A DNA stretch of 64,000 nucleotides from Escherichia coli (GTDB taxonomy: Bacteria > Pseudomonadota > Gammaproteobacteria > Enterobacterales > Enterobacteriaceae): NCBI RefSeq assembly GCF_003790525.1, contig NZ_CP033635.1; one strand, given 5' to 3'. A program made the translations under genes and the position numbers. Each line of letters begins with the position of its first letter. The first letter of the stretch is position 1. The notes under the pieces are model-generated. The model was given only the letters and a program-made list of their open reading frames with translations. It was not told where the DNA came from and searched no databases. Below are positions 1 through 60,194 of the stretch, in pieces.

Positions 1-1
1 A

Positions 2-373
2 GATGCGAATGGCGGCAAGTACGAAGGCTACCGTACCCATTACAAATGGGACAACGGACTTGCTCTGCGTGACTGGCGTTATGTTGTTCGCATTGCAAAC
101 ATCGATGTCAGCAATCTTTCAGAACCTTCCTCTGCCGCAAATATTGCGAAGTTGATGGTTAAAGCACTGCATCGCATTCCAAATCGTGGCATGGGTCGCC
201 CGGTGTTCTACATGAACCGCACTGTAGGCCAGGCTCTTGATCTGCAATCTCTGGAGAAAACATCTCTGGCGATCAGCGTAAAAGAGACAGAAGGCGAGTG
301 GTGGACTTCATTCCGTGGTGTACCAATCCGTGAAACTGATGCGCTTCTGGAAACAGAAGCCCGCGTGGTGTAA
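2..373 (+). CDS. Phage head protein, C-terminal part (probably major capsid protein); 5' end is upstream of the window
   Basis: Open frame runs from window position 2 with no stop until TAA at 371-373; position directly upstream of the tail tubular genes; identity as capsid is inference from gene order. Confidence 0.45.
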   Translation, partial: DANGGKYEGYRTHYKWDNGLALRDWRYVVRIANIDVSNLSEPSSAANIAKLMVKALHRIPNRGMGRPVFYMNRTVGQALDLQSLEKTSLAISVKETEGEWWTSFRGVPIRETDALLETEARVV

Positions 374-389
374 CGCCTGTTATTAACCT

Positions 390-409
390 GTGGGTCGTAA
401 CAGACCCAC
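390..409 (+). promoter_or_regulatory. Intercistronic stem-loop GTGGGTC-N6-GACCCAC after the head gene, no U-tract
   Basis: Perfect 7-bp inverted repeat read directly; lies between stop at 373 and the RBS (GGAG 414-417) of the next gene; possible RNA processing or stability element. Confidence 0.4.
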
Positions 410-424
410 TAATGGAGAAAGAAG

Positions 425-862
425 ATGATCACCGACAAACTGTTGATGTTCTCCGAAGCTCAGGCGGTTACGAATACCGCGGCTTCTACTGACGTAATCG
501 ATCTCGGTCCAATTGACGGAAAACGTCGTGATATCGGCGTGGGTTACCCGCTTGAGTTTTGGGCGCTGGTTAACACAGCCGCCGCGGCAAGCGGTGATGC
601 AACTGTAAACATCCAGTTGCAGACGAGTGAGAATAACAGCTCATGGACCACTATTTATGATAGTGGCGCACTGGCAAAGACCGCCCTGACAGCAGGTAAA
701 CGAGTTGTTTCTGCAAAGGTGCCTGCCGGTGTTCAGCGATATCTGCGTGTTAACTACTCCGTCGCAACTGGCCCACTAACGGCTGGCGAATTCACTGCTG
801 GTATCAGTCTTGATGTTGATGCCAATACGCCGTATCCGATCCGCTCAAAAGTAACTGGTTAA
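425..862 (+). CDS. Hypothetical phage virion protein (145 aa)
   Basis: ORF with ATG preceded by GGAG 8 nt upstream; sits in the structural operon. Confidence 0.6.
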   Translation: MITDKLLMFSEAQAVTNTAASTDVIDLGPIDGKRRDIGVGYPLEFWALVNTAAAASGDATVNIQLQTSENNSSWTTIYDSGALAKTALTAGKRVVSAKVPAGVQRYLRVNYSVATGPLTAGEFTAGISLDVDANTPYPIRSKVTG

Positions 863-872
863 GGTGATATCG

Positions 873-1208
873 ATGTCAGGTGAGAAACCAAGATACCGCG
901 TTCTGCGCCTCTCTCATATCCATAACACTCTGTGGCCGGAGGGGGCAGAAATCGAATACGAAGGTGAGCCCGGTAGCGCACTGGAACCTGTTAACGATGC
1001 AGCCAGACAGGCAAAAGCAAAAATTGCAGGAAAGGTGTCAATGGCAGCAACCAGCACCAAAATCATCAACGATGTGTCAGATGATGGTGAACTGGATAAG
1101 CTCCGTGAAGAGTACGAATTGCTCTTTAACGAGAAGCCACACCATAACGCCAAAGCCGAAACGCTCCGCGAGAAGATCGCAGATAAGCGTAAAGAACTGG
1201 GCGTGTAA
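873..1208 (+). CDS. Hypothetical phage protein (111 aa from ATG 873; ORF track begins at GTG 864)
   Basis: AAGGTGA RBS at 861-867 placed 5 nt before ATG 873. Confidence 0.55.
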   Translation: MSGEKPRYRVLRLSHIHNTLWPEGAEIEYEGEPGSALEPVNDAARQAKAKIAGKVSMAATSTKIINDVSDDGELDKLREEYELLFNEKPHHNAKAETLREKIADKRKELGV

Positions 1209-1226
1209 GCCTCGCGGATCAGACAA

Positions 1227-1246
1227 GGGGCTTCGGCCCCTTTATT
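1227..1246 (+). terminator. Intrinsic terminator inside the structural operon (GGGGC-UUCG-GCCCC followed by TTTATT)
   Basis: GC stem with UUCG tetraloop and T-rich tail read directly; placed after the head-proximal genes, analogous in position to the T7 T-phi terminator (established knowledge). Confidence 0.55.
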
Positions 1247-1258
1247 GCAGGAGTGTAT

Positions 1259-1582
1259 ATGGAACTCGTAAACCTCAAAACCGGCACTGACAGCTACCAG
1301 GATGAGAGCGGAGAAACCAGAACTCGCGATGAATACCCGTGGGGGCTGTGCATCACTCTTAATAACGACACATTGAATAAGCTGAAGGCGCAACCTCAGG
1401 GCGTCGGAACAGAAGTGATGATAACTGCAAAGGCTGTTATTCGAGGCCTGTCTGCCAGAGAAACTGACGATGGTGTTAATCGCAGCGCCGATCTGCAGAT
1501 CACTGATATGGCGATCGCTCCTGTTTCCGGGGATGTAGAAAAATCAGCGGCTGAAACCCTGTACGGCAATGGGGGTGAGTAA
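1259..1582 (+). CDS. Hypothetical phage virion protein (107 aa)
   Basis: GCAGGAG RBS 5 nt before ATG 1259; stop overlaps the next start (TAATG). Confidence 0.55.
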   Translation: MELVNLKTGTDSYQDESGETRTRDEYPWGLCITLNNDTLNKLKAQPQGVGTEVMITAKAVIRGLSARETDDGVNRSADLQITDMAIAPVSGDVEKSAAETLYGNGGE

Positions 1583-2187
1583 TGGCCTCTGTAGTAGAGA
1601 TCTGCAATCGTGCGCTGTCCAATATTGGCAATAGCCGCAGCATTAACAGCCTGACGGAAGCCAGCAAGGAAGCGGGGGAATGTTCGCTGCACTTTGAGGC
1701 CTGCCGTGATGCTGTGCTTTCTGATTTTGACTGGAACTTTGCTACCAAACGCGTGGCGCTTGCAGATACGAGCAATCCACCGCCTGACTGGGAATATGCG
1801 TACCAGTACCCGTCAGATTGTCTGCGCATTACTGAAATTATGCTTCCTGGTGTACGCAATCCAACAGCAGCAATGCGCGTTCAGTACGAAGTTGGTGCAG
1901 ACACCAACGGAACAGGAAAGTTGATCTACACAGACCAGCCTCAGGCATGGCTCAAGTATGTCTCTCTCGTTACAGATGTGAACATGTTTGATGCCATTTT
2001 TATGGAGGCGTTGGCCTGGCGTCTTGCGGCAGCTATTAACATGGCGCTGACTGGGAATGCAGACCTCGGTACGTTTGCCCTCAATATGTACAATCGCGTG
2101 ATTCTTAGTGCTGGCTCGCATAGCCAGAATGAATCACAGGAACCACAGCCACCGGTTGATGAGTTTACCATTGCGAGGTTGTCCTGA
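1582..2187 (+). CDS. Tail tubular protein A-like (T7 gp11-like)
   Basis: 201 aa; size, position and N-terminal sequence pattern resemble T7 gp11 from memory; stop/start overlap with neighbours. Confidence 0.6.
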   Translation: MASVVEICNRALSNIGNSRSINSLTEASKEAGECSLHFEACRDAVLSDFDWNFATKRVALADTSNPPPDWEYAYQYPSDCLRITEIMLPGVRNPTAAMRVQYEVGADTNGTGKLIYTDQPQAWLKYVSLVTDVNMFDAIFMEALAWRLAAAINMALTGNADLGTFALNMYNRVILSAGSHSQNESQEPQPPVDEFTIARLS

Positions 2188-4658
2188 TGGCTATCAGTTG
2201 GATCCAGCCCAGCTTTGCCGGTGGTGAGATTGGACCGTCGTTGTACGGGCGTATTGACATGGCGAAGTACCAGGTAGCATTGCGCAAGTGCGATAACTTT
2301 ATCGTGCGGCAGTATGGCGGCGTTGAGAATCGACCTGGTACGCGTTTTGTCGGTGCCGCCAAATACCCAAATCGGAAATGCCGCCTGATCCCGTTCCAAT
2401 TCTCGACGGTTCAGACTTATGCTCTGGAGTTCGGACACCAGTACATGCGCGTTATCAAAGATGGTGCGTTGGTGCTGAACAGCAGCAATGTTATTTATGA
2501 AATTGCCACGCCATATACTGAAGCCGATCTGTTCCGAATTAAATTCACGCAAAGCGCCGACGTGCTTACGCTGGTTCACCCGGCATACCCGCCGAAAGAG
2601 CTGCGCCGCTATGCGCATGACAACTGGCAACTGGTTGATGTGGTAACGAAGAACGGGCCATTTGAAGATATCAATATTGATGAGTCAGTGACGGTTTATG
2701 CCAGCGCCAGCACCGGGACAATTACGTTAACGGCAAGCGCCTCTATTTTTGGCGCGGAGCAGGTAGGCAAATTGTTCTATCTGGAACAGCCTGCAGTGGA
2801 TTCTGTGCCGGTATGGGAAACCAGTAAGAGTACGTCGATTGGCGATATTCGCCGTGCAGACAGTAACTACTATCGCGCCGTTACAGCAGGCAAAACAGGC
2901 ACTTTGCGCCCTTCGCATACAGAAGGCACATCATGGGATGGCTGGGGCGGATCCGGTGATGATGATACTGGCATTGAGTGGGAGTATCTGCACAGTGGTT
3001 TTGGCATTGCCCGTATAACTGCTGTAAATGGCACTACTGCAACTGCTGAGGTGATTTCCTATATCCCTTCGCAGGTCGTTGGCGAGGATAATGCCAGCTA
3101 TAAATGGGCTAAATATGCCTGGAACAGTGTTAATGGTTATCCTGGCACTGTTGTTTATTATCAACAACGTCTTTACTTCGCCGCATCGACTGCGTTCCCT
3201 CAGACCATCTGGGCCAGCCGTACCGGGGATTATAAGGATTTTGGCAAAAGCAATCCTACGCAGGATGACGACAGAATTATCTACACCTATGCCGGGCGTC
3301 AGGTTAATGAGATCCGTCACCTGATTGATGTTGGTTCTCTGGTGGCGCTGACTTCCGGAGGTGAGTACGTCATCACCGGCGACCAGAACAAAGTGTTAAC
3401 CCCATCATCATTTGCATTCAGCTCTCAGGGATCAAATGGCTCGAGTAATGTCCCACCAATTGCCGTAGCGAATATTGCTCTGTTCGTCCAGGAGAAAGGC
3501 AGTGTTGTCCGTGATCTGGCCTACTCATTCGATGTTGACGGCTATCAGGGGAACGACCTGACCATCCTTGCCAATCATCTTTTTCAGAAGCACAGCATTG
3601 TTGACTGGTGCTTCTCGATTGTCCCTTACTCCAGCGCCTTCTGCATCCGTGATGACGGTAAATTACTGGTGATGACCTATTTGCGTGATCAACAGGTTTT
3701 TGCATGGGCACCACAGTCCAGTACCGGAAAATATGAAAGCACATGCAGTATCAGCGAAGGCAATGAAGATGCGGTGTATTTCGTCGTTAACCGAACCGTT
3801 AACGGGCAAACAGTGAGATACATCGAGAGACTGTCCAGCCGTTTATTTACCAGCGATGAAGATGCTTTCTTTGTTGATTCTGGCCTTAGCTATGATGGAA
3901 GAAATACGTCTGACAGAACGATGACCATCACTGGTGGTTCTGGTGAATGGGATTACCGCGCGGAATATACAATCAGTGTTTCTGGTGGTGCGTACTTCAC
4001 CAGTAGTGATGTCGGTGCGCAACTACAGTTCCCTTATACCGGAACTGATCCTGATACTGGCGATGAAGTGTCAAAAGAATTACGTTGCGACATTATTTCT
4101 GTAACCAGCAATACCGCTGTAGTGGTTCGTGCTAACAGGAACGTCCCGCCATCCCTCAGGAATGTGGCCACCACGAACTGGCAGATGGCGCGCCGGACAT
4201 TTGGAGGCCTGTCTCATCTTGAAGGCCAGACCGTAAACATTCTTTCTGATGCGAATGTTGAGCCACAGAAAGTTGTTTCCGGAGGTGCCGTCACACTGGA
4301 ATCACCGGGGGCTGTAGTGCACATCGGCCTGCCAATAACTGCTGAATTCGAAACACTGGATATCAACATTAACGGACAGGAAACGCTGCTGGACAAAAAA
4401 CAGGTGATCCCCTCCGTTACTCTGGTTGTGAATGCCAGCCGCGGCATCTGGGCGACTACGCCTGGCGGTAAATGGTACGAACATCCACAGCGTGAATTCG
4501 AGTTCTACGATGATCCTGTTGATGATGCTACCGGAAAAGTAGAAGTGAAACTGGACAGTAACTGGGGCAAAAACGGACGTGTAAAAATCCGTCAGCTTGA
4601 CCCGTTGCCGCTGTCTGTTCTTGCCGTTATTCCTCGCCTTACTGTTGGGGGATTCTGA
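2187..4658 (+). CDS. Tail tubular protein B-like (T7 gp12-like, nozzle)
   Basis: 823 aa directly after the gp11-like gene; N-terminal GG...RPG pattern like gp12; TGATG overlap at both ends. Confidence 0.6.
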   Translation: MAISWIQPSFAGGEIGPSLYGRIDMAKYQVALRKCDNFIVRQYGGVENRPGTRFVGAAKYPNRKCRLIPFQFSTVQTYALEFGHQYMRVIKDGALVLNSSNVIYEIATPYTEADLFRIKFTQSADVLTLVHPAYPPKELRRYAHDNWQLVDVVTKNGPFEDINIDESVTVYASASTGTITLTASASIFGAEQVGKLFYLEQPAVDSVPVWETSKSTSIGDIRRADSNYYRAVTAGKTGTLRPSHTEGTSWDGWGGSGDDDTGIEWEYLHSGFGIARITAVNGTTATAEVISYIPSQVVGEDNASYKWAKYAWNSVNGYPGTVVYYQQRLYFAASTAFPQTIWASRTGDYKDFGKSNPTQDDDRIIYTYAGRQVNEIRHLIDVGSLVALTSGGEYVITGDQNKVLTPSSFAFSSQGSNGSSNVPPIAVANIALFVQEKGSVVRDLAYSFDVDGYQGNDLTILANHLFQKHSIVDWCFSIVPYSSAFCIRDDGKLLVMTYLRDQQVFAWAPQSSTGKYESTCSISEGNEDAVYFVVNRTVNGQTVRYIERLSSRLFTSDEDAFFVDSGLSYDGRNTSDRTMTITGGSGEWDYRAEYTISVSGGAYFTSSDVGAQLQFPYTGTDPDTGDEVSKELRCDIISVTSNTAVVVRANRNVPPSLRNVATTNWQMARRTFGGLSHLEGQTVNILSDANVEPQKVVSGGAVTLESPGAVVHIGLPITAEFETLDININGQETLLDKKQVIPSVTLVVNASRGIWATTPGGKWYEHPQREFEFYDDPVDDATGKVEVKLDSNWGKNGRVKIRQLDPLPLSVLAVIPRLTVGGF

Positions 4659-5122
4659 TGATCGATGTTCGAATTATTCCCGCTACCGAAGAGCATCTTC
4701 AGATGATTTTGCCGGATGTTCGTCAGGCTGATATTGACGAACTGTATGCGGTATCGCTGATGACTACCGAAGATGCGCTGCGCGTTGGTCTGCGCACTGC
4801 GACTATGGCCTGGTCAGGGTTCGCGAACGGAGAACTGGTAACCATGTTTGGTGTATCTCCGGCGTCAATGATCGGTGGCAATGGTACACCCTGGCTGGTC
4901 GGGACCAGCCGTATTGAAAAATATCAGAAGACATTTCTGCGCCACTGCCGCCCTGTATTGCAGCAGATGCTGGCAGTTTATCCGCGCCTGGAAAACTACG
5001 TCGACGAGCGAAACTATGTTGCCAAAGCATGGCTGCACTGGCTTGGATTCAGGCTTGAAGAGGCCGCGCCTTATGGTGCTCTTGGTCTTAATTTCCACAG
5101 ATTTCACATGGAGAGAAAATAA
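4658..5122 (+). CDS. Internal virion protein (gp13-like position)
   Basis: 154 aa; gene order only. Confidence 0.45.
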   Translation: MIDVRIIPATEEHLQMILPDVRQADIDELYAVSLMTTEDALRVGLRTATMAWSGFANGELVTMFGVSPASMIGGNGTPWLVGTSRIEKYQKTFLRHCRPVLQQMLAVYPRLENYVDERNYVAKAWLHWLGFRLEEAAPYGALGLNFHRFHMERK

Positions 5123-5667
5123 TGTGCGATCCGGTTATTGCTGGTGGCGCAATGCTCGCCATGAGTGGCATTCAGGCATACACCCAGTACCAACAGGGAA
5201 AGTATGCCTCGAAGGTTGCAGAAGCGAACGCAGATATAGCCACTGCTCAGGCAAATGATGCAATAAACATAGGTAACGCTGAAGCTGAGCAACGGCGCAG
5301 AGAGACCCGACAGCGGCTTGGTACACAGGCGGCGACAATGGGGGCTACCGGCGCTGATTTATCTACAGGTAACGCGCTGGATATATTTGGCGACACTGCT
5401 CAGTTTGGCGCTCTTGATGCGCTGACGACGGTGAATAACGCGCAACGCGAGGCTTACGGTTATCAGATGCAGGCTGCTAACTATAAAGCAGAAGCCAGTT
5501 CAGCCCGTAAACAGGGGAATGTGGGAGCAGCAACAACATTGCTCACTGCGCCTCTGAAGGCATACGGTGCGTACCAGATGTTTGGTGGGACGTGGAGTCC
5601 GTTTACTCAAAGCACTCCTGCGCCAATCGGGGCAGCAGCAGGAACCAGATTACCCGGAGGATTATAA
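5122..5667 (+). CDS. Internal virion protein (gp14-like)
   Basis: 181 aa, starts MC..., Ala/Gln-rich, same size class and position as T7 gp14. Confidence 0.5.
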   Translation: MCDPVIAGGAMLAMSGIQAYTQYQQGKYASKVAEANADIATAQANDAINIGNAEAEQRRRETRQRLGTQAATMGATGADLSTGNALDIFGDTAQFGALDALTTVNNAQREAYGYQMQAANYKAEASSARKQGNVGAATTLLTAPLKAYGAYQMFGGTWSPFTQSTPAPIGAAAGTRLPGGL

Positions 5668-8180
5668 TGCCAGTCGTACCAACAGTATCCGGACGTCAGG
5701 TTGAGAGCCGTGGAGTTCAGTCAGCAGGCTTGCAGACGTTTTCTCAGCCAGGTATTGGTGATGCTTTTGTTCTGGCAGGGGAAGAGGCAATTGATGTTTT
5801 TGGGCAGGCAAAACAGCGTGCCAATATTGCCTTGGCTCAGGAGGCATCTCTTAACCTCAGTCAGATAAGCAGTGATTTGCTGAATAATCCTGAAACAGGA
5901 TTGCTTAACCTGAAAGGGAAAAATGCTATTGGAAAAGGCCATGAGTATACGCAGCAGTTTGATGCTCAGGTCGAACAATTGGCTATGTCGCTGCCGGATG
6001 AACAGGCTCGTAATGCTTTCATGCAGCAGGCGCAGCAGCAGCGCATTCAGTTCACTACGCAGGCCGGGCGGCACGAGATAGGGCAAATAAATGCCTACGA
6101 AGAAGGCCAGTTTCAGGCGACGCTGCTGAACAATGGTAAAAATGCCGCAGCATTGTATGGCGACAACGCCGCATACGTATTGGCTAATAAGCAAACTTTC
6201 CAGCAAATTGAGGATTACGGCATTGCGCATGGCTGGAGCGACGAGCAAATCCAGGCCAAGAAAATCGAGTTTAAAGAGAAGGTTGCTGATGCCGCATTGT
6301 CCCAGTGGTCGGCAAACAATGCGACCGCATTCATCCAAAGTAATGGCGAGTTAAGTGATACTGCTGCTGGAGCTCGCCGTGCTGTAGCAGATAGTGACTC
6401 TTCCGAGCGTGCCCGTGGCATACGCAACAATAACCCAGGAAATCTCGAATACAGCAAAACTAATCCGTGGGTAGGCCAGACCGGTGATGATGGTCGATTT
6501 GCTAAATTCGAAACACCTGAACACGGGATTCGTGCATTAGGGCGGAACCTGATGTCGTATCAGAGGCAGGGTATTGATACCGTCAGCGAGATAATTAATC
6601 GCTGGGCACCGCCTACTGATAAAAATGACACTATGTCGTATATCAAAGCAGTGTGCGAACAACTTGGCGTTTCTGCTGATGAGCCTCTCGATGCATCTAA
6701 TCCTGATACCCTGAAGGCGCTTTGTGCAGCCATTATCCATCATGAGAACGGTAGCCAGCCATACAGTGATCAGCAGTTAACTGCTGGTGTCAGTGCAGCA
6801 CTTGGTTTATCAACAATTCCAACCAACATCAAACGCTATACCGGTAATGCAGCATTCGATGCGGCATCTCCTGAGGCGCAGGCAAGTTTTATGCGACAGG
6901 CGGATCAACTGCGTCGGCAGCAGCAGGCTGAATATAAAACGATGATTGACAGCCAGGTTCGCGATGCGACAGCTGCGTATATGCGTGGCGTTGAATTTCC
7001 TAACCCACCTGGTGAGGCTGATTTTATTGCAGCTTATGGAGTCAGAGAAGGAAACCTGCGATATACCGAGTTCAGAAATGCGCAAATCGCCGGACAGTAT
7101 ATAGGCTCTTTCCGCAACATGCCGACAAGCAGCATTACATCATATGTTGAGCAATTACGCCCGGATACTGGTGAGACAGGGGAGGGTTATGCGGCACGAG
7201 CCGCTCTTTATGACAACGTTGTGTCGGCTGCAAGTCAGGTGATAAAGCAGCGACAGGCTGATCCTGTACAGTTCTCTCTTGCCGCCGGACAGGCAAAGCC
7301 TATCGACATGAGCAATAAGGATAACTTTGGACAGAGCGTTGCCTTGCGTGCCGCTCAGGTCAGTGACCTTGCTAAGTCATATGGCACTCCACTGACGTTC
7401 TTTTCCAAAGACGAGGCCAATCAGATCGGTGTTTTCTTTCGTGATGCGCCCGTTTCCCAACAGGCAGCATATCTCGATACCATCAGGCAGAGCACTGGTG
7501 GTGGGCAGGTGTATATGTCAGCACTACAGCAGATCAGTGCCAACGCTCCATCTGCTGCCGTTGCCGGGATACTGATGGATAAGCCAGGTGGTATTTTGGC
7601 AGAAAAAAACTGGTTTAATCCGGATGTTTCCGTGTCTCCTGAAACCGCTGCGCAGACAATTCTTGCTGGCGCGGCGGCTCGTAAAGGTACTGATGACGCG
7701 AAAGGTATTCCGATGCCTAAAGATGCTGATCTTCGCCTTGAGTTTTCTGACATGGTGAAGGATGCATTTGCTGGTGATGCTCAGGGGGCATCAATGGCAT
7801 ACGAGATCGCAAAGGACTATTACGCTGGTGTGATGGCGAAAAAAGGCGTGGTATCAGGCGAAATTGACAATGATATCTGGAAACAGGCTGTTAACGTAGC
7901 TACAGGTGGCGTGCATGACTATAACGGAATGGGGAATGTTCTTTTGCCGTGGGGAATGTCTGCAGAGCAATTCGATAAGCAGGTTAATCAGGCTTGGAAT
8001 GAACAAGTTGTTGGCACAGGGATAAAAACACCGCCTGGTCAGTATGGTTTGCAAAGTTACGGCGATAGTCAGTACCTGGTGAAACTTGGTACTGGTTATC
8101 TGCTAAAAGATGATGGTTCTCCCGTTGTTCTTGATCTGACACAGAAGCGTCAGAGATTCTCCGGAGATATTCCGAAATGA
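5667..8180 (+). CDS. Internal virion / ejection protein (gp15-like position), 837 aa
   Basis: Start moved from ORF-track 5592 to ATG 5667, which overlaps the upstream stop (TAATG) and has GGAGG 7 nt upstream; contains a conserved-looking NNPGNL...W...RWAP motif block. Confidence 0.55.
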   Translation: MPVVPTVSGRQVESRGVQSAGLQTFSQPGIGDAFVLAGEEAIDVFGQAKQRANIALAQEASLNLSQISSDLLNNPETGLLNLKGKNAIGKGHEYTQQFDAQVEQLAMSLPDEQARNAFMQQAQQQRIQFTTQAGRHEIGQINAYEEGQFQATLLNNGKNAAALYGDNAAYVLANKQTFQQIEDYGIAHGWSDEQIQAKKIEFKEKVADAALSQWSANNATAFIQSNGELSDTAAGARRAVADSDSSERARGIRNNNPGNLEYSKTNPWVGQTGDDGRFAKFETPEHGIRALGRNLMSYQRQGIDTVSEIINRWAPPTDKNDTMSYIKAVCEQLGVSADEPLDASNPDTLKALCAAIIHHENGSQPYSDQQLTAGVSAALGLSTIPTNIKRYTGNAAFDAASPEAQASFMRQADQLRRQQQAEYKTMIDSQVRDATAAYMRGVEFPNPPGEADFIAAYGVREGNLRYTEFRNAQIAGQYIGSFRNMPTSSITSYVEQLRPDTGETGEGYAARAALYDNVVSAASQVIKQRQADPVQFSLAAGQAKPIDMSNKDNFGQSVALRAAQVSDLAKSYGTPLTFFSKDEANQIGVFFRDAPVSQQAAYLDTIRQSTGGGQVYMSALQQISANAPSAAVAGILMDKPGGILAEKNWFNPDVSVSPETAAQTILAGAAARKGTDDAKGIPMPKDADLRLEFSDMVKDAFAGDAQGASMAYEIAKDYYAGVMAKKGVVSGEIDNDIWKQAVNVATGGVHDYNGMGNVLLPWGMSAEQFDKQVNQAWNEQVVGTGIKTPPGQYGLQSYGDSQYLVKLGTGYLLKDDGSPVVLDLTQKRQRFSGDIPK

Positions 8181-9979
8181 GTTACTTTGGCCTTAATCCA
8201 GTAAACCAGAATCAGCAGCTTGACGAAGCAGCATCAAATCCAGTTGGCTTTAACAGCGATGTTGGTTTTTTCGACAATGCTGTAGGAGCGGCATTGTCTG
8301 GTTTGTACTCCGGGCTGGTGGCAAAGCCTGATCAGTTGCTCTGGGCAGGGATGGATAAAATCGTATCCCCGATTGCTCAGTTTGTTAACGAAAACACCTC
8401 GCTCAATGACACTTCAGTTTCATACATTGCCGAGCAGAGAAAACTAGCAGAGCAGCAGGTTAAGCGGCTGACGCCTGATGCCGCGACAACCGGAACCGCC
8501 GGGCAGGTTCTTTATGGGTTGTTCGATATGGGCGGGCAGGCTGTTATCGGTACAACGCTCGGTGGTCCGGTCGGAGGTGCTGCGGCGGTAACTTCGCTAC
8601 AGGGTTTTTCTGAGTTTGAACGGCTGACAGCACAGGGTGTTGATTTCAGGACGGCGCAGGAAGCGGGATTAGTGCAGGGTATTACTGCTGGTGCCGGAAC
8701 ACTGATCCCTATGAGCCTCGGGTTACGTGCTGGTGGTGCGCTGGCGGAAGGTGTGGCGGCTCAGCTTGCGCGGACGGGTGAAAGTTCAGTGCGACGCGCC
8801 GCAGCAACAGCAGTACGTGCAACGCCAGATATTGCCTATGCCGCAGGTACAAATATTGCGTTCGGTATGGCACAGCGTGGGCTTACTGCAAAAACGCTTC
8901 GTGATGGTGGCTATAGCGAAATGGCTAACCAGTATGATGTGTTGGATCGACAGGCAATTGCTATTGATGCTGTTCTTGGGGTGGCGTTTGGTGGTGTCGG
9001 CAGATTTATTAACTCTCGCGGCGAGTCTACAAGCGCACCAAATTTTTCACCAGTTGATATCGATGCTGCACTGGCGGCGAATGCCGCTCATCATGCTGAA
9101 ATTGATATTGCTCCCGGTGTGCCGATCAACGTGCTTTCGCGTAATTCGCACATTCAGGCTCTGCGAAAAGCCATGTCTGATGTTAGCCAGGGGAGACCTG
9201 TAGACGTTGCCAGCATTGTTGAGTCTGCATCTTTCAGTGAAATTCCTGGGCGCAAGAGTCTGCTTTCTCAGGCAGTTAATGAGGCTCTGTCATCTGTAGA
9301 TGATGGAGTAACGGCGCGCGCTATAGAAAATCGGTTGCTTGAAGAACAGGCCGCGCAGCTTTTGCCGCGTGGCGATAGACAGGTTTACCAGTCTGAAATC
9401 GCTAATAGCCAACGAATTATTGAAAATCTCACTGAACAGCGCGCACAAATTCTTGCAGAAGAGCCAACCGGTAGCGGTAAAGCTTTGTCTCGTGCTCGAT
9501 CAGATAAACAGGCCAGACTTCGCGATATTGATCAACGAATCCGGCAGGCACAAGAACGCCTGGAGTTTTCCCGTAACGCGTTGGCTCCGCACGAGCCTGG
9601 CGGTCAGTTTTTTGAAGCTCGAGCAGAACTGGCACGACGACAGCAGGCAGAAAGTGAACTTAATGCTCAGGCTGTTTCATTCTATAAAACAGCAGAGGTC
9701 AGGACGCCAGACGAAGTAGCTCCTTTTGAGCCCGGTAAGATATTGCAACAGACAGAACAAAAAATGATGGCAGATCCGGCAGGAGATATTGATCTGCGTA
9801 TAGCTGAAGACTCGCTGCTTGAATCTCCGGACATGATAATCACCGTGCTGGATGATGATGGTAATCCACAATCGCGCAGTGCGCGTGAAGTACTGGATGA
9901 AGCGAACAGGGAAAGTGAGCAGGCAATACAGGATTCCAGCCTGTTTGATGTTGCTGTGGCGTGTTTCTTGAGAGGTTAA
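8177..9979 (+). CDS. Internal virion / ejection protein, 600 aa, Gly/Ala-rich
   Basis: ATGA overlap with upstream gene; gene order. Confidence 0.5.
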   Translation: MSYFGLNPVNQNQQLDEAASNPVGFNSDVGFFDNAVGAALSGLYSGLVAKPDQLLWAGMDKIVSPIAQFVNENTSLNDTSVSYIAEQRKLAEQQVKRLTPDAATTGTAGQVLYGLFDMGGQAVIGTTLGGPVGGAAAVTSLQGFSEFERLTAQGVDFRTAQEAGLVQGITAGAGTLIPMSLGLRAGGALAEGVAAQLARTGESSVRRAAATAVRATPDIAYAAGTNIAFGMAQRGLTAKTLRDGGYSEMANQYDVLDRQAIAIDAVLGVAFGGVGRFINSRGESTSAPNFSPVDIDAALAANAAHHAEIDIAPGVPINVLSRNSHIQALRKAMSDVSQGRPVDVASIVESASFSEIPGRKSLLSQAVNEALSSVDDGVTARAIENRLLEEQAAQLLPRGDRQVYQSEIANSQRIIENLTEQRAQILAEEPTGSGKALSRARSDKQARLRDIDQRIRQAQERLEFSRNALAPHEPGGQFFEARAELARRQQAESELNAQAVSFYKTAEVRTPDEVAPFEPGKILQQTEQKMMADPAGDIDLRIAEDSLLESPDMIITVLDDDGNPQSRSAREVLDEANRESEQAIQDSSLFDVAVACFLRG

Positions 9980-9984
9980 ATTAA

Positions 9985-12459
9985 ATGAGACAGGAATGTA
10001 TACAAGCGGTCCAGCAGGCGGCGCAGCGCACGTTAACGGCGCGAGAAATACAGAACATTGAAGACCGCATTTATCGAAATATGCGCTCCATTGCTCGTGA
10101 TGACCCGATGTCGTGGCGACAACTTTCCGAATCAGAACGGTTGTATCGTGCAGCACAATTGGCATCTGAAGAATTACAGCGAGAAGCGGCATTAAAGAAA
10201 CGTCGTGTGGCCCTCACTATAGCCGCACGTCAGAGATTGGATAAATTTATCAATAGCTATCAAGGGGCTGATGGGAAACTTGGCGCTCTTAACCGTACTA
10301 TTGCTTTTAATGCAGACGGTAAATCGAATTTCCTCTCTGTTGAATCCAGAACAAAAGCCACCCGTGATTATGCATTGAGTCAATTGCAGGAGGCATTCGA
10401 AGCAGTTGATCCTCGCTTTTTTGGTCTGTTTGAAGATGAAGCGGGCGTACGTGACCTGGTATATGAAATGCGGGGGCAAAATACTGGCAATGCTAAAGCA
10501 AGAAAAGGTGCTAAGGCGTGGAGAGAAGTTACAGAGCTGCTGCGCCGCCGGTTTAATGATGCTGGTGGGGACATTGGCTATCTCGAAAACTGGGGGATCC
10601 CTCAACATCATTCTATGGAAAAGGTTGGGGCGGTATCAAAGGATAAGTGGGTTAGCGATGTTATAGGTAAGCTGGATCGCAAATATTATACCCGAGCCGA
10701 TGGACAACTGATGAACGATGCCGAGTTGTCTGAATTTCTTGGAGAGGCTTATAACACGATCGCTACTGGTGGGCTGAATAAGCTTACTGATACCGGAATG
10801 CGAATTTCCGGCGCACGTGCTAACCGTGGTAATGCATCACGACAGATACATTTCAAAGATGCAGATTCCTATCTGCAATATCAGCAACTTTATGGCGATC
10901 GCTCTCTATGGGAAATCATGGTCGGTCACCTGGAAGGTATCAGTAAAGATATTGCGCTGGTGGAAACATATGGCCCAAACCCCGATCATGTTTTCCGCTC
11001 CCTTCTTGATCAGGTTAAGGCAGAAACGGCAACAGCTAACCCGAGTAAAACCGGTAGCGTCGAGCGTCTGGCGAACAAAACAGAGAACTTGTACAACTTT
11101 ATTTCCGGAAAAACACAGCCTGTAGCGAATCCGCACATCGCGCGATGGTCTGACAATATCCGCAACTGGCTGGTTGCCAGCAGACTCGGATCCGCGTTGC
11201 TGTCATCGTTCTCTGATCTTGGAACCATGTATCTGTCTGCGAAGGTTACCAACCTTCCAATGAACCAGTTATTTCGCAACCAGCTTGAAGCTATGGACCC
11301 AACGAACCGTACAGAACTTGCGCGGGCGCGCCGCGCTGGCCTGGCGATGGAATCTCTACTTGGCAGCGTTAACCGCTGGGCGATGGATAATATGGGGCCG
11401 TCTGTGTCTCGTTGGGCGGCAACGGCGGTAATGCGTGCCAGTGGGCTTACAGCATGGTCAGATGCGCACAAGCGCGCCTATGGCGTAACCATGATGGGAA
11501 GCCTGGGAGAAGTAGTGTCACGGACACCAGACCTTCGTAGCCTCGATGACTCTGATTTTCGTATCCTGAAAAGCAAAGGGATTACTGACACAGACTGGAG
11601 CGTATGGAAGCTGGCGCAACAGGAGGACTGGGGGAACGGTAATAATACGATGCTGACACCGGAAAGCATTATGCGTATCCCTGATTCAGCAGTTAAACAT
11701 CTTGGTGAGCCTGAACGCGTGAAATTTGAGGCAATGCGTAAACTGCTCGGTGCCGTAACTGAAGAAGTTGATATGGCTGTTATTACACCGGGCGCACGTG
11801 AACAGATGTTCGTAGGGTCTGGTCTTCAGCGTGGAACATGGAAAGGTGAATTAACGAGAAGTGTTTTCCTGTTTAAATCGTTCCCTATCTCGGTAGTTAT
11901 GCGTCACTGGCATAGAGCTATGGGGATGCCGTCTGCTGGTGGGCGTGCGGCATATATAGCAACGTTTTTAGCAAGCACAACCATGCTTGGTGCTCTTTCC
12001 ATGCAGATTACTGATCTTATTAATGGGAGAAATCCAAAAGAAATGACCGGTGACAACATGGTTAAATTCTGGATAAATGCATTTTTAAAAGGTGGTGGGG
12101 CAGGGTTGTATGGTGATTTTCTTTTCTCTGACCACACCAGGTACGGGAGCGGCGCACTAGCGTCGATGCTTGGCCCGGTAGCTGGTCTGGTTGATGACGT
12201 AGTGAAGATTGCTCAGGGCATACCGTTAAATGCTGTGGAAGGGAAGAATGAGCAGACTGGTGGTGATCTGGTTAAGCTTGGGAAAGGTTTGATGCCTGGT
12301 GCGAATCTCTGGTACTTGAAGGCGGCTCTCGATCACATGATCTTTAATCAGATGCAGGAGTATTTTTCACCAGGCTATTTGCGTAAAATGGAGCAACGTT
12401 CGAAGAAAGAGTTTAACCAGACATACTGGTGGCGACCTCAGGATGTCACTCCGCAATAA
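9985..12459 (+). CDS. Internal virion / ejection protein (gp16-like position), 824 aa
   Basis: Last large gene of the structural operon; AGAGG RBS upstream. Confidence 0.5.
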   Translation: MRQECIQAVQQAAQRTLTAREIQNIEDRIYRNMRSIARDDPMSWRQLSESERLYRAAQLASEELQREAALKKRRVALTIAARQRLDKFINSYQGADGKLGALNRTIAFNADGKSNFLSVESRTKATRDYALSQLQEAFEAVDPRFFGLFEDEAGVRDLVYEMRGQNTGNAKARKGAKAWREVTELLRRRFNDAGGDIGYLENWGIPQHHSMEKVGAVSKDKWVSDVIGKLDRKYYTRADGQLMNDAELSEFLGEAYNTIATGGLNKLTDTGMRISGARANRGNASRQIHFKDADSYLQYQQLYGDRSLWEIMVGHLEGISKDIALVETYGPNPDHVFRSLLDQVKAETATANPSKTGSVERLANKTENLYNFISGKTQPVANPHIARWSDNIRNWLVASRLGSALLSSFSDLGTMYLSAKVTNLPMNQLFRNQLEAMDPTNRTELARARRAGLAMESLLGSVNRWAMDNMGPSVSRWAATAVMRASGLTAWSDAHKRAYGVTMMGSLGEVVSRTPDLRSLDDSDFRILKSKGITDTDWSVWKLAQQEDWGNGNNTMLTPESIMRIPDSAVKHLGEPERVKFEAMRKLLGAVTEEVDMAVITPGAREQMFVGSGLQRGTWKGELTRSVFLFKSFPISVVMRHWHRAMGMPSAGGRAAYIATFLASTTMLGALSMQITDLINGRNPKEMTGDNMVKFWINAFLKGGGAGLYGDFLFSDHTRYGSGALASMLGPVAGLVDDVVKIAQGIPLNAVEGKNEQTGGDLVKLGKGLMPGANLWYLKAALDHMIFNQMQEYFSPGYLRKMEQRSKKEFNQTYWWRPQDVTPQ

Positions 12460-19837: not shown

Positions 19838-19992
19838 CATGGTATTTTTCATGGCACTGATTTCCGGTGACGGTATATAAAACGGTACGGGAAAAGTTGA
19901 GCTTTGGAAAAATGTTATCACTCAATTGGTTATGGTGTCCGTGAATAATTGAGTGGGAATGATTTTGATCCCTGCACTATGAATGAACAAAA

Positions 19993-20018
19993 CCCTCTGT
20001 TACTACAGAGGGTTTTTT
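19993..20018. terminator. Bidirectional intrinsic terminator (CCCTCTGT-TACT-ACAGAGGG flanked by A-run and T-run) at the prophage / yfgI junction
   Basis: Perfect 8-bp stem with six T after it on + and four on -. Confidence 0.6.
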
Positions 20019-24227: not shown

Positions 24228-24232
24228 ATAAT

Positions 24233-24259
24233 GCGGGCCGACATTTCTCGTCGGCCCGC
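24233..24259. terminator. Convergent-gene hairpin GCGGGCCGAC-N7-GTCGGCCCGC between pdeF and ppx (no clear U-tract)
   Basis: Perfect 10-bp inverted repeat read directly. Confidence 0.45.
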
Positions 24260-24265
24260 AAAGCA

Positions 24266-30676: not shown

Positions 30677-30693
30677 AGAATAAAAATAATTAA

Positions 30694-30721
30694 AGCCGAC
30701 TTTAAGAGTCGGCTTTTTTTT
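30694..30721 (+). terminator. Intrinsic terminator / attenuator between upp and uraA
   Basis: AGCCGAC-N7-GTCGGCT hairpin followed by eight T. Confidence 0.6.
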
Positions 30722-36109: not shown

Positions 36110-36955
36110 GGGTTCCTGACGTAAATAAATAGCCCGATAACAAATACTCACCAGCACTGCACCGCCGATAATATTACCCAGCATCACCGGGAGCAGATTG
36201 GCGGTAATAAAATGGCTGACCGTCAGTGCCGGAAAATGGTCTGCGCTACTGTGCGCCAGTTGCCAGAAGGAGGTAGGGGCGAAATGGCGAATGGCAATGG
36301 CGAACGGAATCACAAACAAATTGGCGATACAGTGCTCAAAACCACTGGCGACAAACAGGGTGATGGGCAAAATCATGGCGACGATTTTGTCGCATAACGA
36401 ACGTCCGCAATAACTCATCCACAGCGCCAGGCAAACCATCACATTGCACATAATGCCGAGGCTGACTGATTCAGTAAATGTATGATGCATTTTGCCCTCG
36501 GCGCAGTGTAAAACCGCGACTCCCCACATCGCGTTTTCACTCATCACCAGCCCGGAAAACCAAATTAACAAACTGAAACAGGCAATACCTGCCAGATTAC
36601 CGCAGGCCACCAGAAGTGCATTAATCAGCCATGTTCGCCAGCTAATAACGCCCCGACTTTTTGCCATCACCGTCATTACCGACGAGGTGAACAGGCTGGT
36701 GCCGCAAACCGCCAGCAAAATAAAGCCGAGCGTAAAGCAAAGGCCTCCCACCAGATGGGTTAATGCCTGTGAAGACGGGGCATCGGCGATAACGGTAAGG
36801 TAAAAAGTAAATCCGATCGCCATAAACACGCCTGCGGACATCGCCATTAAAAAGACCGACACTTTGCTGCGGGCAATTTTATGGGCGGCAATCCGTTCAG
36901 CGATTGCCGCTTTTCTGGCGCTCAACTGCAAGTCGAAAGAGAGTTTGTTTCTCAT
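36107..36955 (-). CDS. focB: Formate channel FocB
   Basis: 282 aa FNT-family membrane protein downstream of hyfR. Confidence 0.9.
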   Translation of the reverse strand: MRNKLSFDLQLSARKAAIAERIAAHKIARSKVSVFLMAMSAGVFMAIGFTFYLTVIADAPSSQALTHLVGGLCFTLGFILLAVCGTSLFTSSVMTVMAKSRGVISWRTWLINALLVACGNLAGIACFSLLIWFSGLVMSENAMWGVAVLHCAEGKMHHTFTESVSLGIMCNVMVCLALWMSYCGRSLCDKIVAMILPITLFVASGFEHCIANLFVIPFAIAIRHFAPTSFWQLAHSSADHFPALTVSHFITANLLPVMLGNIIGGAVLVSICYRAIYLRQEP

Positions 36956-60161: not shown

Positions 60162-60194
60162 AAAAAGGCGACACATTAGCATGTCGCCTTTTTT
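60162..60194. terminator. Bidirectional intrinsic terminator between ypfM and acrD
   Basis: GGCGACA-N8-TGTCGCC hairpin flanked by A-run and T-run. Confidence 0.6.

What the first reader, a model, noticed from the sequence alone, without database searches (positions are those of the whole stretch)
390..409. Perfect stem-loop without U-tract directly after the head gene
Seen: GTGGGTC-GTAACA-GACCCAC between the head-gene stop and the next RBS. Inference: RNase III-type processing site or mRNA stabiliser that raises head protein mRNA relative to downstream genes, as in T7-like late operons.
Basis: partly seen in the sequence, partly recalled or inferred. Interest (0 to 1): 0.3.

Follow-up and report, generated by a model that had tools for sequence, protein, structure and literature searches.

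The report
Conserved mRNA hairpin after phage capsid gene
A small RNA hairpin just after the major capsid gene of an epsilon15/phiV10-type E. coli prophage is real and kept by compensatory mutations in related phages, but it is an ordinary kind of mRNA structure, most likely a barrier to mRNA decay and neither a terminator nor an RNase III site.

Summary
GTGGGTC-GTAACA-GACCCAC lies at 390-409, 16 nt after the capsid-gene stop (371-373) and 4 nt before the GGAG of the next gene (ATG 425). No U-tract follows.

A perfect 7-bp hairpin is not unusual in 64 kb (about 43 found, about 23 expected). Comparison makes it real. The window starts inside a phiV10/epsilon15-like prophage. Among 86 related loci, 23 of 24 distinct versions of this gap carry a hairpin at the same place. 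Their stems differ (GTGGGCC, ATGGGCC, AGCGGCCCG, AGCGGGGC and others). They contain 15 G·U pairs that work only on the sense strand. The tail never has more than 2 U in 8.

A second hairpin in the same operon (1225-1242) always keeps a U-rich tail. BPP-1-like phages often carry an equivalent U-less hairpin; epsilon15 has none.

The element is therefore a selected, sequence-independent hairpin in the late mRNA. RNase III is unlikely, because 7 bp is well below the roughly 11-22 bp that enzyme needs. Efficient intrinsic termination is unlikely without a U-tract.

My best guess (about 0.45) is a barrier to 3'-to-5' exonucleases that protects the capsid part of the late mRNA. A role in translating the downstream cement-protein gene is the main rival. 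The function is inferred, not shown. Interest is low to moderate.

The parts
2..373 (+). 3' part of the major capsid protein gene (last 123 codons; stop TAA 371-373)
   Evidence: 98-99% identical to phiV10 gene PhiV10p10, 'major head protein'; matches PHROG 212, major head protein
374..389 (+). 16-nt unpaired, A/U-rich spacer (CGCCUGUUAUUAACCU) between the stop codon and the hairpin
   Evidence: The spacer is 14-17 nt in all 23 hairpin-bearing variants of the clade
390..409 (+). H1, the finding: 7-bp stem with 6-nt loop, GUGGGUC-GUAACA-GACCCAC, no U-tract
   Evidence: pairing probability about 1.0. Present at the same position in 23 of 24 distinct variants with different stems and compensatory changes. 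CM alignment: 86% of cells paired, 4 of 7 pairs changed on both sides, 0 of 500 shuffles as good
410..424 (+). Linker UAAU, Shine-Dalgarno GGAG (414-417) and spacer up to the ATG
   Evidence: The stem-to-GGAG distance is 4 nt in 20 of 23 variants (range 2-5)
425..862 (+). Gene for a homologue of the Bbp16 / epsilon15 gp8 capsid cement protein (145 aa)
   Evidence: phmmer against PDB: 3j4u_H BPP-1 cementing protein, E = 1.5e-25; 8cjz_B capsid decoration protein, E = 1.6e-22. phiV10p11 carries the annotation 'similar to Bbp16'
414..454 (+). Predicted local structure that sequesters the Shine-Dalgarno sequence: GGAGAA 414-419 pairs with UUCUCC 449-454 and encloses a small inner hairpin
   Evidence: The SD bases are about 95% paired in the predicted ensemble. 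Codons 1-11 of the gene show almost no synonymous variation (0.02 against 0.29 elsewhere; Mann-Whitney p = 2e-4). No covariation is available, because the sequence is invariant
1225..1249 (+). H2: AAGGGGC-UUCG-GCCCCUU followed by UAUUGCA. A terminator-like hairpin with a U-rich tail, lying between the gp9-like and gp10-like genes
   Evidence: The T-rich tail is kept in 29 of 29 distinct variants. The equivalent site in epsilon15 is annotated as a rho-independent terminator

Best explanation
H1 is a hairpin that forms in the sense-strand late mRNA of an epsilon15/phiV10-like prophage. It occupies one of only two non-coding gaps in more than 12 kb of tightly packed late genes. Selection acts on its stability and position, not on its sequence. 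It most likely works as a physical barrier to the host 3'-to-5' exonucleases (PNPase, RNase II). When the long polycistronic late transcript is cut or ends somewhere downstream, exonucleolytic trimming stops at H1. The upstream portal-protease-capsid segment then outlives the rest. Because it has no U-tract, RNA polymerase passes it and the downstream genes are still transcribed. Shown here: the structure, its conservation and covariation, its strand, and the conserved absence of a U-tract. Inferred: the decay-barrier function.
For: (1) The hairpin is real and selected. Of 24 distinct gap sequences from 86 loci, 23 have a contiguous hairpin of -11.7 to -18.6 kcal/mol (z = -2.4 to -5.7 against shuffles), 14-17 nt after the stop. 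At least nine different stems are seen. Intermediate states occur in near-identical backgrounds: U-G in L035 and C-A in L017. Covariation counts exceed all 500 shuffles. (2) The structure belongs to sense-strand RNA. Fifteen G·U or U·G pairs occur in 10 of the 23 hairpins; each would be an A·C mismatch on the other strand. Only one C·A mismatch is seen. (3) It is independent of sequence. Loops include GNRA tetraloops (GUAA, GGAA, GAAA, GUGA), NUAACN hexaloops and others. Outside the clade, 23 of 55 junctions carry unrelated GC-rich hairpins. This fits a generic stability element, not a specific binding site. (4) The lack of a U-tract is itself conserved. No more than 2 T occur in the 8-nt tail in all 23 variants, and only 1 of 23 hairpins outside the clade has a U-tail. 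H2, in the same operon and the same phages, always keeps a T-rich tail. (5) The gaps appear to exist for the hairpins. Junctions without a hairpin have a median gap of 24 nt and those with one 57 nt. H1 and H2 occupy the only gaps longer than 15 nt in window 1-12459. (6) There is a precedent in the same host. In E. coli, stable stem-loops not followed by U-rich sequence define steady-state mRNA 3' ends and protect them from PNPase and RNase II (PMC6061677).
Against: No transcript-end, half-life or coverage data exist for this phage group, so the function is inferred. The next gene encodes a cement-protein homologue that BPP-1 probably needs in capsid-like amounts (seven chains in the 3j4u entry). 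Favouring capsid mRNA over it is therefore not obviously useful. The gp10-like decoration gene lies beyond both hairpins. Within the clade the hairpin keeps a near-constant 4-nt distance to the Shine-Dalgarno sequence, which could point to a translational role instead. Epsilon15 and many relatives do without the hairpin. A 7-bp stem of -13.6 kcal/mol is at the weak end for an exonuclease block (from memory of in vitro studies; not checked here).
Confidence: 0.45

Rival explanations
1. H1 is a translation-level element for the downstream cement-protein gene. Sitting 4 nt upstream of the Shine-Dalgarno sequence, it would shape the initiation region. It could block ribosomes that have just finished the heavily translated capsid gene from scanning into the next start, which would uncouple the two genes. 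It could bring an upstream standby segment close to the Shine-Dalgarno sequence. Or it could become a protective 5' hairpin for the downstream mRNA after an RNase E cut in the A/U-rich spacer.
For: The stem-to-GGAG distance is 4 nt in 20 of 23 clade variants even though stem length varies from 6 to 12 bp. The whole initiation region looks constrained: the SD is predicted to be about 95% paired with codons 9-10, and codons 1-11 show almost no synonymous change. Relatives without the hairpin place the SD directly after the stop, in gaps of 3-30 nt, as if the hairpin replaced tight coupling.
Against: Outside the clade the hairpin-to-SD distance varies from about 3 to 18 nt, and in the BPP-1 group the hairpin lies only about 5 nt after the stop. 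SD adjacency is therefore not a general property. Deleting or disrupting H1 in silico hardly changes predicted SD or AUG accessibility (0.03-0.05 against 0.03-0.19). The constant spacing inside the clade may simply reflect the conserved flanking sequence.
Confidence: 0.25
2. H1 is a weak or conditional transcription attenuator: a hairpin-dependent pause or low-efficiency intrinsic terminator that lowers transcription of everything downstream of the capsid gene.
For: It is a GC-rich stem-loop with terminator-like energy, placed directly after the most abundant virion gene, as T-phi is in T7. The first four bases after the stem are always A/U-rich (UAAU, AAAU, GAAU). Dar and Sorek note that U-poor stem-loops may be inefficient intrinsic terminators.
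Against: There is no U-tract in any of the 23 clade variants and in only 1 of 23 hairpins outside the clade. The same phages maintain a canonical U-rich tail at H2, so a U-tract would be expected at H1 if termination were selected. The terminator scan does not call H1. All essential tail and lysis genes lie downstream.
Confidence: 0.15
3. H1 is a specific protein-binding operator, for example a site for autoregulation by the capsid or cement protein or another phage RNA-binding protein, like the translational operators of RNA phages or T4.
For: It is a hairpin next to a ribosome-binding site. An NUAACN loop recurs in many clade variants, and the identical GUAACA loop is seen in three loci of the BPP-1 clade whose stems differ.
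Against: Loop sequences are not conserved overall. They include GNRA variants, AAUGAC, AUG, CGCGU and AUACC within the clade, and UUCG, UACG, GCGA and others outside it. Stems change freely, and there is no conserved bulge or unpaired base.
Confidence: 0.05
4. H1 is an RNase III processing site.
For: It is a perfect double-stranded stem in an intercistronic position, and T7-type phages do use RNase III sites between genes.
Against: The helix is 7 bp (at most 12 bp with G·U pairs in one relative). RNase III substrates typically span two turns, about 22 bp, and 11 bp between cleavage site and loop is the minimum reactive length. Folding in wider context adds no coaxial extension in the centroid structure. 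T7 has no RNase III site directly after gene 10.
Confidence: 0.03
5. H1 is a chance palindrome or a DNA-level element, such as a protein-binding inverted repeat, with no RNA function.
For: Perfect 7-bp hairpins are common in the window. Another one at 343-360 lies inside the capsid coding sequence and is not conserved.
Against: Hairpins occur at the same position in 23 of 24 variants with different stems. G·U pairs are tolerated only in the sense-strand orientation (15 against 1). Half-site sequences are not conserved, unlike a protein-binding DNA palindrome.
Confidence: 0.02

Closest known systems
U-less protective stem-loops at steady-state mRNA 3' ends in E. coli (Dar & Sorek 2018, PMC6061677), and, from my own knowledge, classical intercistronic stabilisers such as the REP hairpins between malE and malF or the puf operon hairpins
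   Same: All are stable GC-rich stem-loops with terminator-like energy that are not followed by U-rich sequence and lie just after a coding region. H1 sits in the same host, and its sequence is free to vary so long as the stem is kept.
   Different: Those elements were defined by mapped 3' ends and dependence on exonucleases, and nothing of that kind is available here. H1 is internal to an operon and lies 4 nt from the next SD. It is shorter and weaker than REP elements, and it is not a repeated element: the covariance model found no other copy in the window.
Terminator T-phi immediately after gene 10 (major capsid) of phage T7, and terminators downstream of the capsid gene in other T7/phiKMV-like phages (PMC5592923, PMC3765740)
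   Same: The position and presumed logic match: a hairpin directly after the most highly expressed virion gene, with the downstream genes expressed by read-through.
   Different: T-phi is a true terminator with a U-run and acts on the phage RNA polymerase. H1 has no U-tract, and this phage group is unrelated to T7 (genus Uetakevirus). I assume from general knowledge that these phages use the host polymerase.
Rho-independent terminator annotated between gp9 and gp10 of epsilon15; the equivalent here is H2 at window 1225-1249
   Same: It belongs to the same operon and phage family, is a GC-rich hairpin in an intercistronic gap of about 50 nt directly upstream of an SD, and is conserved in all relatives.
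   Different: H2 has a UUCG loop, upstream A residues and a conserved U-rich tail. H1 never has the tail. Epsilon15 itself has H2 but no H1, with only 12 nt between gp7 and gp8.
E. coli RNase III processing sites such as T7 R1.1
   Same: Both are intercistronic double-stranded RNA in a phage polycistronic transcript.
   Different: Helix length is 7 bp against about 22 bp (minimum 11 bp from cleavage site to loop). H1 has no internal loop, and no proximal or distal box architecture could be placed on it.

Membership tests
Intrinsic (Rho-independent) terminator | GC-rich stem-loop of terminator-like stability | tested here: met
   7 bp, 5 G-C, -13.6 kcal/mol; relatives -11.7 to -18.6 kcal/mol
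Intrinsic (Rho-independent) terminator | U-rich tract of 7-8 nt immediately after the stem | tested here: not met
   The tail is UAAUGGAG, with 2 U in 8. No variant among the 23 exceeds 2. The terminator scan does not call it. H2 in the same operon does meet this feature
Intrinsic (Rho-independent) terminator | Releases RNA polymerase at the site | not testable with these tools
   Needs in vitro transcription or Term-seq
E. coli RNase III substrate | Helix of about two turns (about 22 bp), with at least 11 bp between cleavage site and loop | tested here: not met
   7 contiguous bp, with no coaxial extension in the centroid folds of 81 nt and 201 nt. The requirement is taken from PMC1540722 and PMC6212723
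E. coli RNase III substrate | rnc-dependent cleavage in vivo | not testable with these tools
   No end-mapping data
U-less protective 3' stem-loop / intercistronic mRNA stabiliser | Stable stem-loop, energetically like a terminator hairpin, not followed by U-rich sequence, downstream of a coding region | tested here: met
U-less protective 3' stem-loop / intercistronic mRNA stabiliser | Structure, rather than sequence, is under selection on the transcribed strand | tested here: met
   Compensatory changes and sense-strand-only G·U pairs
U-less protective 3' stem-loop / intercistronic mRNA stabiliser | Steady-state 3' ends map immediately downstream of the stem and depend on PNPase or RNase II; the upstream segment has a longer half-life | not testable with these tools
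   No transcriptome or 3'-end data for phiV10-like prophages were found (literature searches)
Sequence-specific protein-binding RNA operator (MS2 or T4 type) | Conserved loop or bulge nucleotides across relatives | tested here: not met
   Loops vary: GUAACA, UUAACC, GNRA tetraloops, AAUGAC, AUG, CGCGU, AUACC
Any curated Rfam family | Match to a covariance model | tested here: not met
   No match at E <= 5 in window 1-2500 on either strand

The most novel reading that the evidence does not exclude
H1, together with the invariant structure that sequesters the Shine-Dalgarno sequence at 414-454, forms a dedicated device that sets the capsid-to-cement-protein ratio. H1 could be recognised by a late phage protein through its recurrent UAAC-type loop. 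Or it could fold out of the way so that ribosomes finishing the capsid gene are handed across a 51-nt gap to the masked start of the cement gene. In either case the hairpin would act on translation rather than on mRNA decay.
Probability: 0.07. Interest if true: 0.55.

Novelty: new member of a known kind. Interest (0 to 1): 0.3.

Why it matters
If the decay-barrier reading is right, phiV10/epsilon15- and BPP-1-like phages tune the amounts of head proteins through segmental mRNA stability. They would use a U-less hairpin after the capsid gene and a true terminator two genes later. This adds a clean example, supported by covariation, of the U-less protective stem-loops known from E. coli chromosomal genes. 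It also gives annotators a positional marker for this phage family. Practically, the element is a compact natural part that could stabilise an upstream cistron without stopping transcription. It does not change any general view of phage gene regulation.

Tried and rejected
- **Rfam.** A scan of window 1-2500 at a permissive threshold found nothing.
- **Consensus scans.** The promoter and terminator scans call neither H1 nor a nearby promoter.
- **Covariance-model alignment.** The alignment from model R1 kept the sequence register for the Klebsiella-type group, which is off by one. The formal pair counts (86% paired) therefore understate the conservation, and RNAalifold recovered only 4 pairs for the same reason. 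I used a per-sequence hairpin census with shuffles instead.
- **Read-through or reinitiation.** In the window, TAA 371, TAA 398, TAA 410 and ATG 425 share one frame. I rejected a frame-based mechanism because gap lengths in relatives are 51, 52, 53 and 55 nt.
- **DNA palindrome.** Rejected on G·U strand asymmetry and non-conserved half-sites.
- **Insulator of SD accessibility.** In silico deletion or disruption of H1 barely changes predicted SD or AUG pairing.
- **Hairpin at 343-360.** This hairpin inside the capsid coding sequence is broken in phage Tyrion, so I treat it as coincidence.
- **Literature.** Searches for transcript maps or terminators of phiV10, epsilon15 or BPP-1 late operons found nothing usable.
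- **Repeat family.** No other copy of H1 exists in the window.

Full report
**What the window is**

The first roughly 20 kb of the window are 96-99% identical to Escherichia phage phiV10, phiv142-3, TL-2011b and other members of the genus Uetakevirus (epsilon15-like temperate podophages). The window opens inside the major capsid gene. Its last 123 codons end at TAA 371-373. The next gene (425-862) encodes a 145-aa homologue of the BPP-1 cement protein Bbp16 (PDB 3j4u_H, E = 1.5e-25) and of a capsid decoration protein (8cjz_B). A gp9-like gene (873-1208), a gp10-like gene (1259-1582) and the tail genes follow.

**The observation**

GTGGGTC-GTAACA-GACCCAC is at 390-409 exactly as reported.
- It lies 16 nt after the stop and 4 nt before GGAG (414-417); the ATG is at 425.
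- The centroid fold of the region contains only this hairpin (-13.6 kcal/mol). Its pairs have probability 0.99-1.0 in contexts of 100, 200 and 360 nt.
- The eight bases after the stem (UAAUGGAG) contain two U, and the terminator scan does not call it.
- A perfect 7-bp hairpin is not special in itself. The window holds about 43 distinct ones, against about 23 in shuffles.
- Within its own 51-nt gap, however, only 1 of 300 dinucleotide shuffles reaches the same energy.

**Comparative evidence within the clade**

I collected the capsid-to-cement junction from GenBank relatives and from 80 IMG/VR loci whose capsid proteins are 85-100% identical. The 86 junctions collapse to 24 distinct sequences.
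- Twenty-three carry a contiguous hairpin at the same place, 14-17 nt after the stop. Energies run from -11.7 to -18.6 kcal/mol, and z-scores from -2.4 to -5.7 against shuffles.
- The stems differ: GTGGGTC, GTGGGCC, ATGGGCC, AGCGGCCCG, AGCGGGGC, AGCTGCCTG, GGCGGGC, GGCGGGCTG and TGATGGGCTGCG, each with its complement.
- Single-step intermediates exist in near-identical phiV10 backgrounds: U-G in L035, and a C-A mismatch in L017, the one exception.
- A covariance-model alignment gives 86% of cells paired, 4 of 7 pairs with changes on both sides, and no shuffle out of 500 as good. This is an underestimate, because one subgroup is aligned one column out of register.
- Fifteen G·U or U·G pairs occur in 10 of the 23 hairpins. 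They would be A·C mismatches on the other strand, so the structure belongs to the sense-strand RNA and not to DNA or an antisense transcript.
- Loops are not conserved: NUAACN hexaloops, four different GNRA tetraloops, and others. Selection is therefore on a stable stem at this position and not on a sequence.

**The missing U-tract is itself conserved**

- No clade variant has more than 2 T in the eight bases after the stem.
- A second hairpin, H2 (1225-1242, AAGGGGC-UUCG-GCCCCUU followed by UAUUG), lies between the gp9-like and gp10-like genes. It keeps a T-rich tail in all 29 distinct variants.
- The equivalent of H2 in epsilon15 is annotated as a rho-independent terminator.
- These phages therefore maintain a canonical terminator two genes downstream but never give H1 a U-tract.
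- H1 and H2 occupy the only gaps longer than 15 nt in more than 12 kb of otherwise abutting late genes (upstream genes).

**The wider family**

Using BPP-1 Bbp17 as the lead query, I examined 55 further distinct junctions.
- Twenty-three have a strong GC-rich hairpin (median gap 57 nt). Thirty-two have none (median gap 24 nt).
- BPP-1 has GGGGGCGG-GCGA-CCGCCCCC with no U-tract. Epsilon15 has a 12-nt gap and no hairpin.
- Only 1 of the 23 hairpins has a U-rich tail.
- In this wider set the hairpin lies 3-22 nt after the stop and about 3-18 nt before the Shine-Dalgarno sequence. The shared property is simply a stable U-less hairpin in the gap after the capsid gene.

**What it is not**

- *RNase III site.* These substrates typically span two helical turns (about 22 bp), and 11 bp between cleavage site and loop is the shortest reactive helix (PMC1540722; PMC6212723). 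H1 has 7 bp and no coaxial extension.
- *Efficient intrinsic terminator.* This needs the U-tract that H1 lacks.
- *Known RNA family.* Rfam gives no match.
- *Repeat.* There is no other copy in the window.
- *T7 parallel.* The analogy is positional only. T7 has the T-phi terminator, not an RNase III site, right after gene 10 (PMC5592923).

**Most likely mechanism (inferred)**

In E. coli, stable stem-loops without U-rich tails define steady-state mRNA 3' ends and protect them from PNPase and RNase II (PMC6061677). H1 has exactly those properties. I therefore favour a decay barrier, at about 0.45. RNA polymerase reads through. After downstream cleavage or termination (for example at H2), exonucleases trim back to H1, and the capsid-containing upstream segment persists.

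Several points count against this reading.
- There are no transcript data.
- The next gene encodes a cement-protein homologue probably needed in capsid-like amounts.
- The gp10-like gene lies beyond both hairpins.
- The 4-nt spacing to the SD is strikingly constant within the clade.

**Main rival: a translational role (about 0.25)**

The start region of the cement gene looks constrained.
- GGAGAA 414-419 is predicted to pair with UUCUCC 449-454, and the SD is about 95% paired.
- Codons 1-11 show almost no synonymous variation (0.02 against 0.29; p = 2e-4).
- However, removing H1 in silico does not change SD accessibility, and the SD distance is not conserved outside the clade.

The remaining alternatives are a weak attenuator (0.15), a protein operator (0.05), RNase III (0.03), and chance or a DNA-level element (0.02).

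**Verdict**

This is a new, unannotated member of a well-known kind of element, of low to moderate interest.

Noticed in passing
window 1225-1249: A second intercistronic hairpin, H2 (AAGGGGC-TTCG-GCCCCTT followed by TATTGCA), lies between the gp9-like and gp10-like genes. It is conserved with a T-rich tail in 29 of 29 distinct relatives and corresponds to the rho-independent terminator annotated in epsilon15. A canonical terminator in the middle of the late operon, upstream of the decoration and tail genes, implies leaky termination or antitermination.
   Followed up: partly
window 414-457: The Shine-Dalgarno sequence GGAGAA (414-419) of the cement-protein gene is predicted to pair with UUCUCC (449-454) in codons 9-10. 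The first 11 codons show almost no synonymous variation across 61 distinct relatives (0.02 against 0.29 elsewhere; p = 2e-4). This suggests a conserved structured translation-initiation region.
   Followed up: partly
L002 (phage EC.W1-9) 2208-2265, and 10 other IMG/VR loci: Eleven phiV10-like loci lack the gp10-like capsid decoration gene altogether. In them H2 is followed directly by the gp11-like tail gene (ATGGCCTCTGTAGTAGAG...). These phages may rely on the Bbp16-like cement protein alone.
   Followed up: no
window 343-360: A perfect hairpin, GCTTCTG-GAAA-CAGAAGC, lies inside the last codons of the capsid gene (LLETEA). A synonymous change in phage Tyrion breaks it, so it is probably a by-product of the codons.
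   Followed up: yes
window 19964-20016: Similarity to the phiV10-type phages ends near 19964. Just outside lies a 12-bp hairpin, AAAACCCTCTGT-TACT-ACAGAGGGTTTT (19989-20016), with A- and T-tracts on either side, which looks like a bidirectional terminator. No tRNA gene is found anywhere in the window.
   Followed up: no
L090, L091, L093 (BPP-1-like IMG/VR contigs), gap after the capsid gene: Their hairpins have quite different stems (GGGGGCGG/CCGCCCCC) but the same GTAACA loop as the window. TAAC- or TAAT-containing loops recur in several other relatives. This could be shared ancestry of the loop or an unexplained preference.
   Followed up: no
whole window: Perfect hairpins with stems of at least 7 bp are about twice as frequent as in shuffled sequence (56 including nested ones, about 43 distinct, against 23.4 +/- 5.5). 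Several are strong terminator-like ones in the chromosomal part, for example at 24232-24260, 30692-30716, 36885-36910 and 60162-60193.
   Followed up: no
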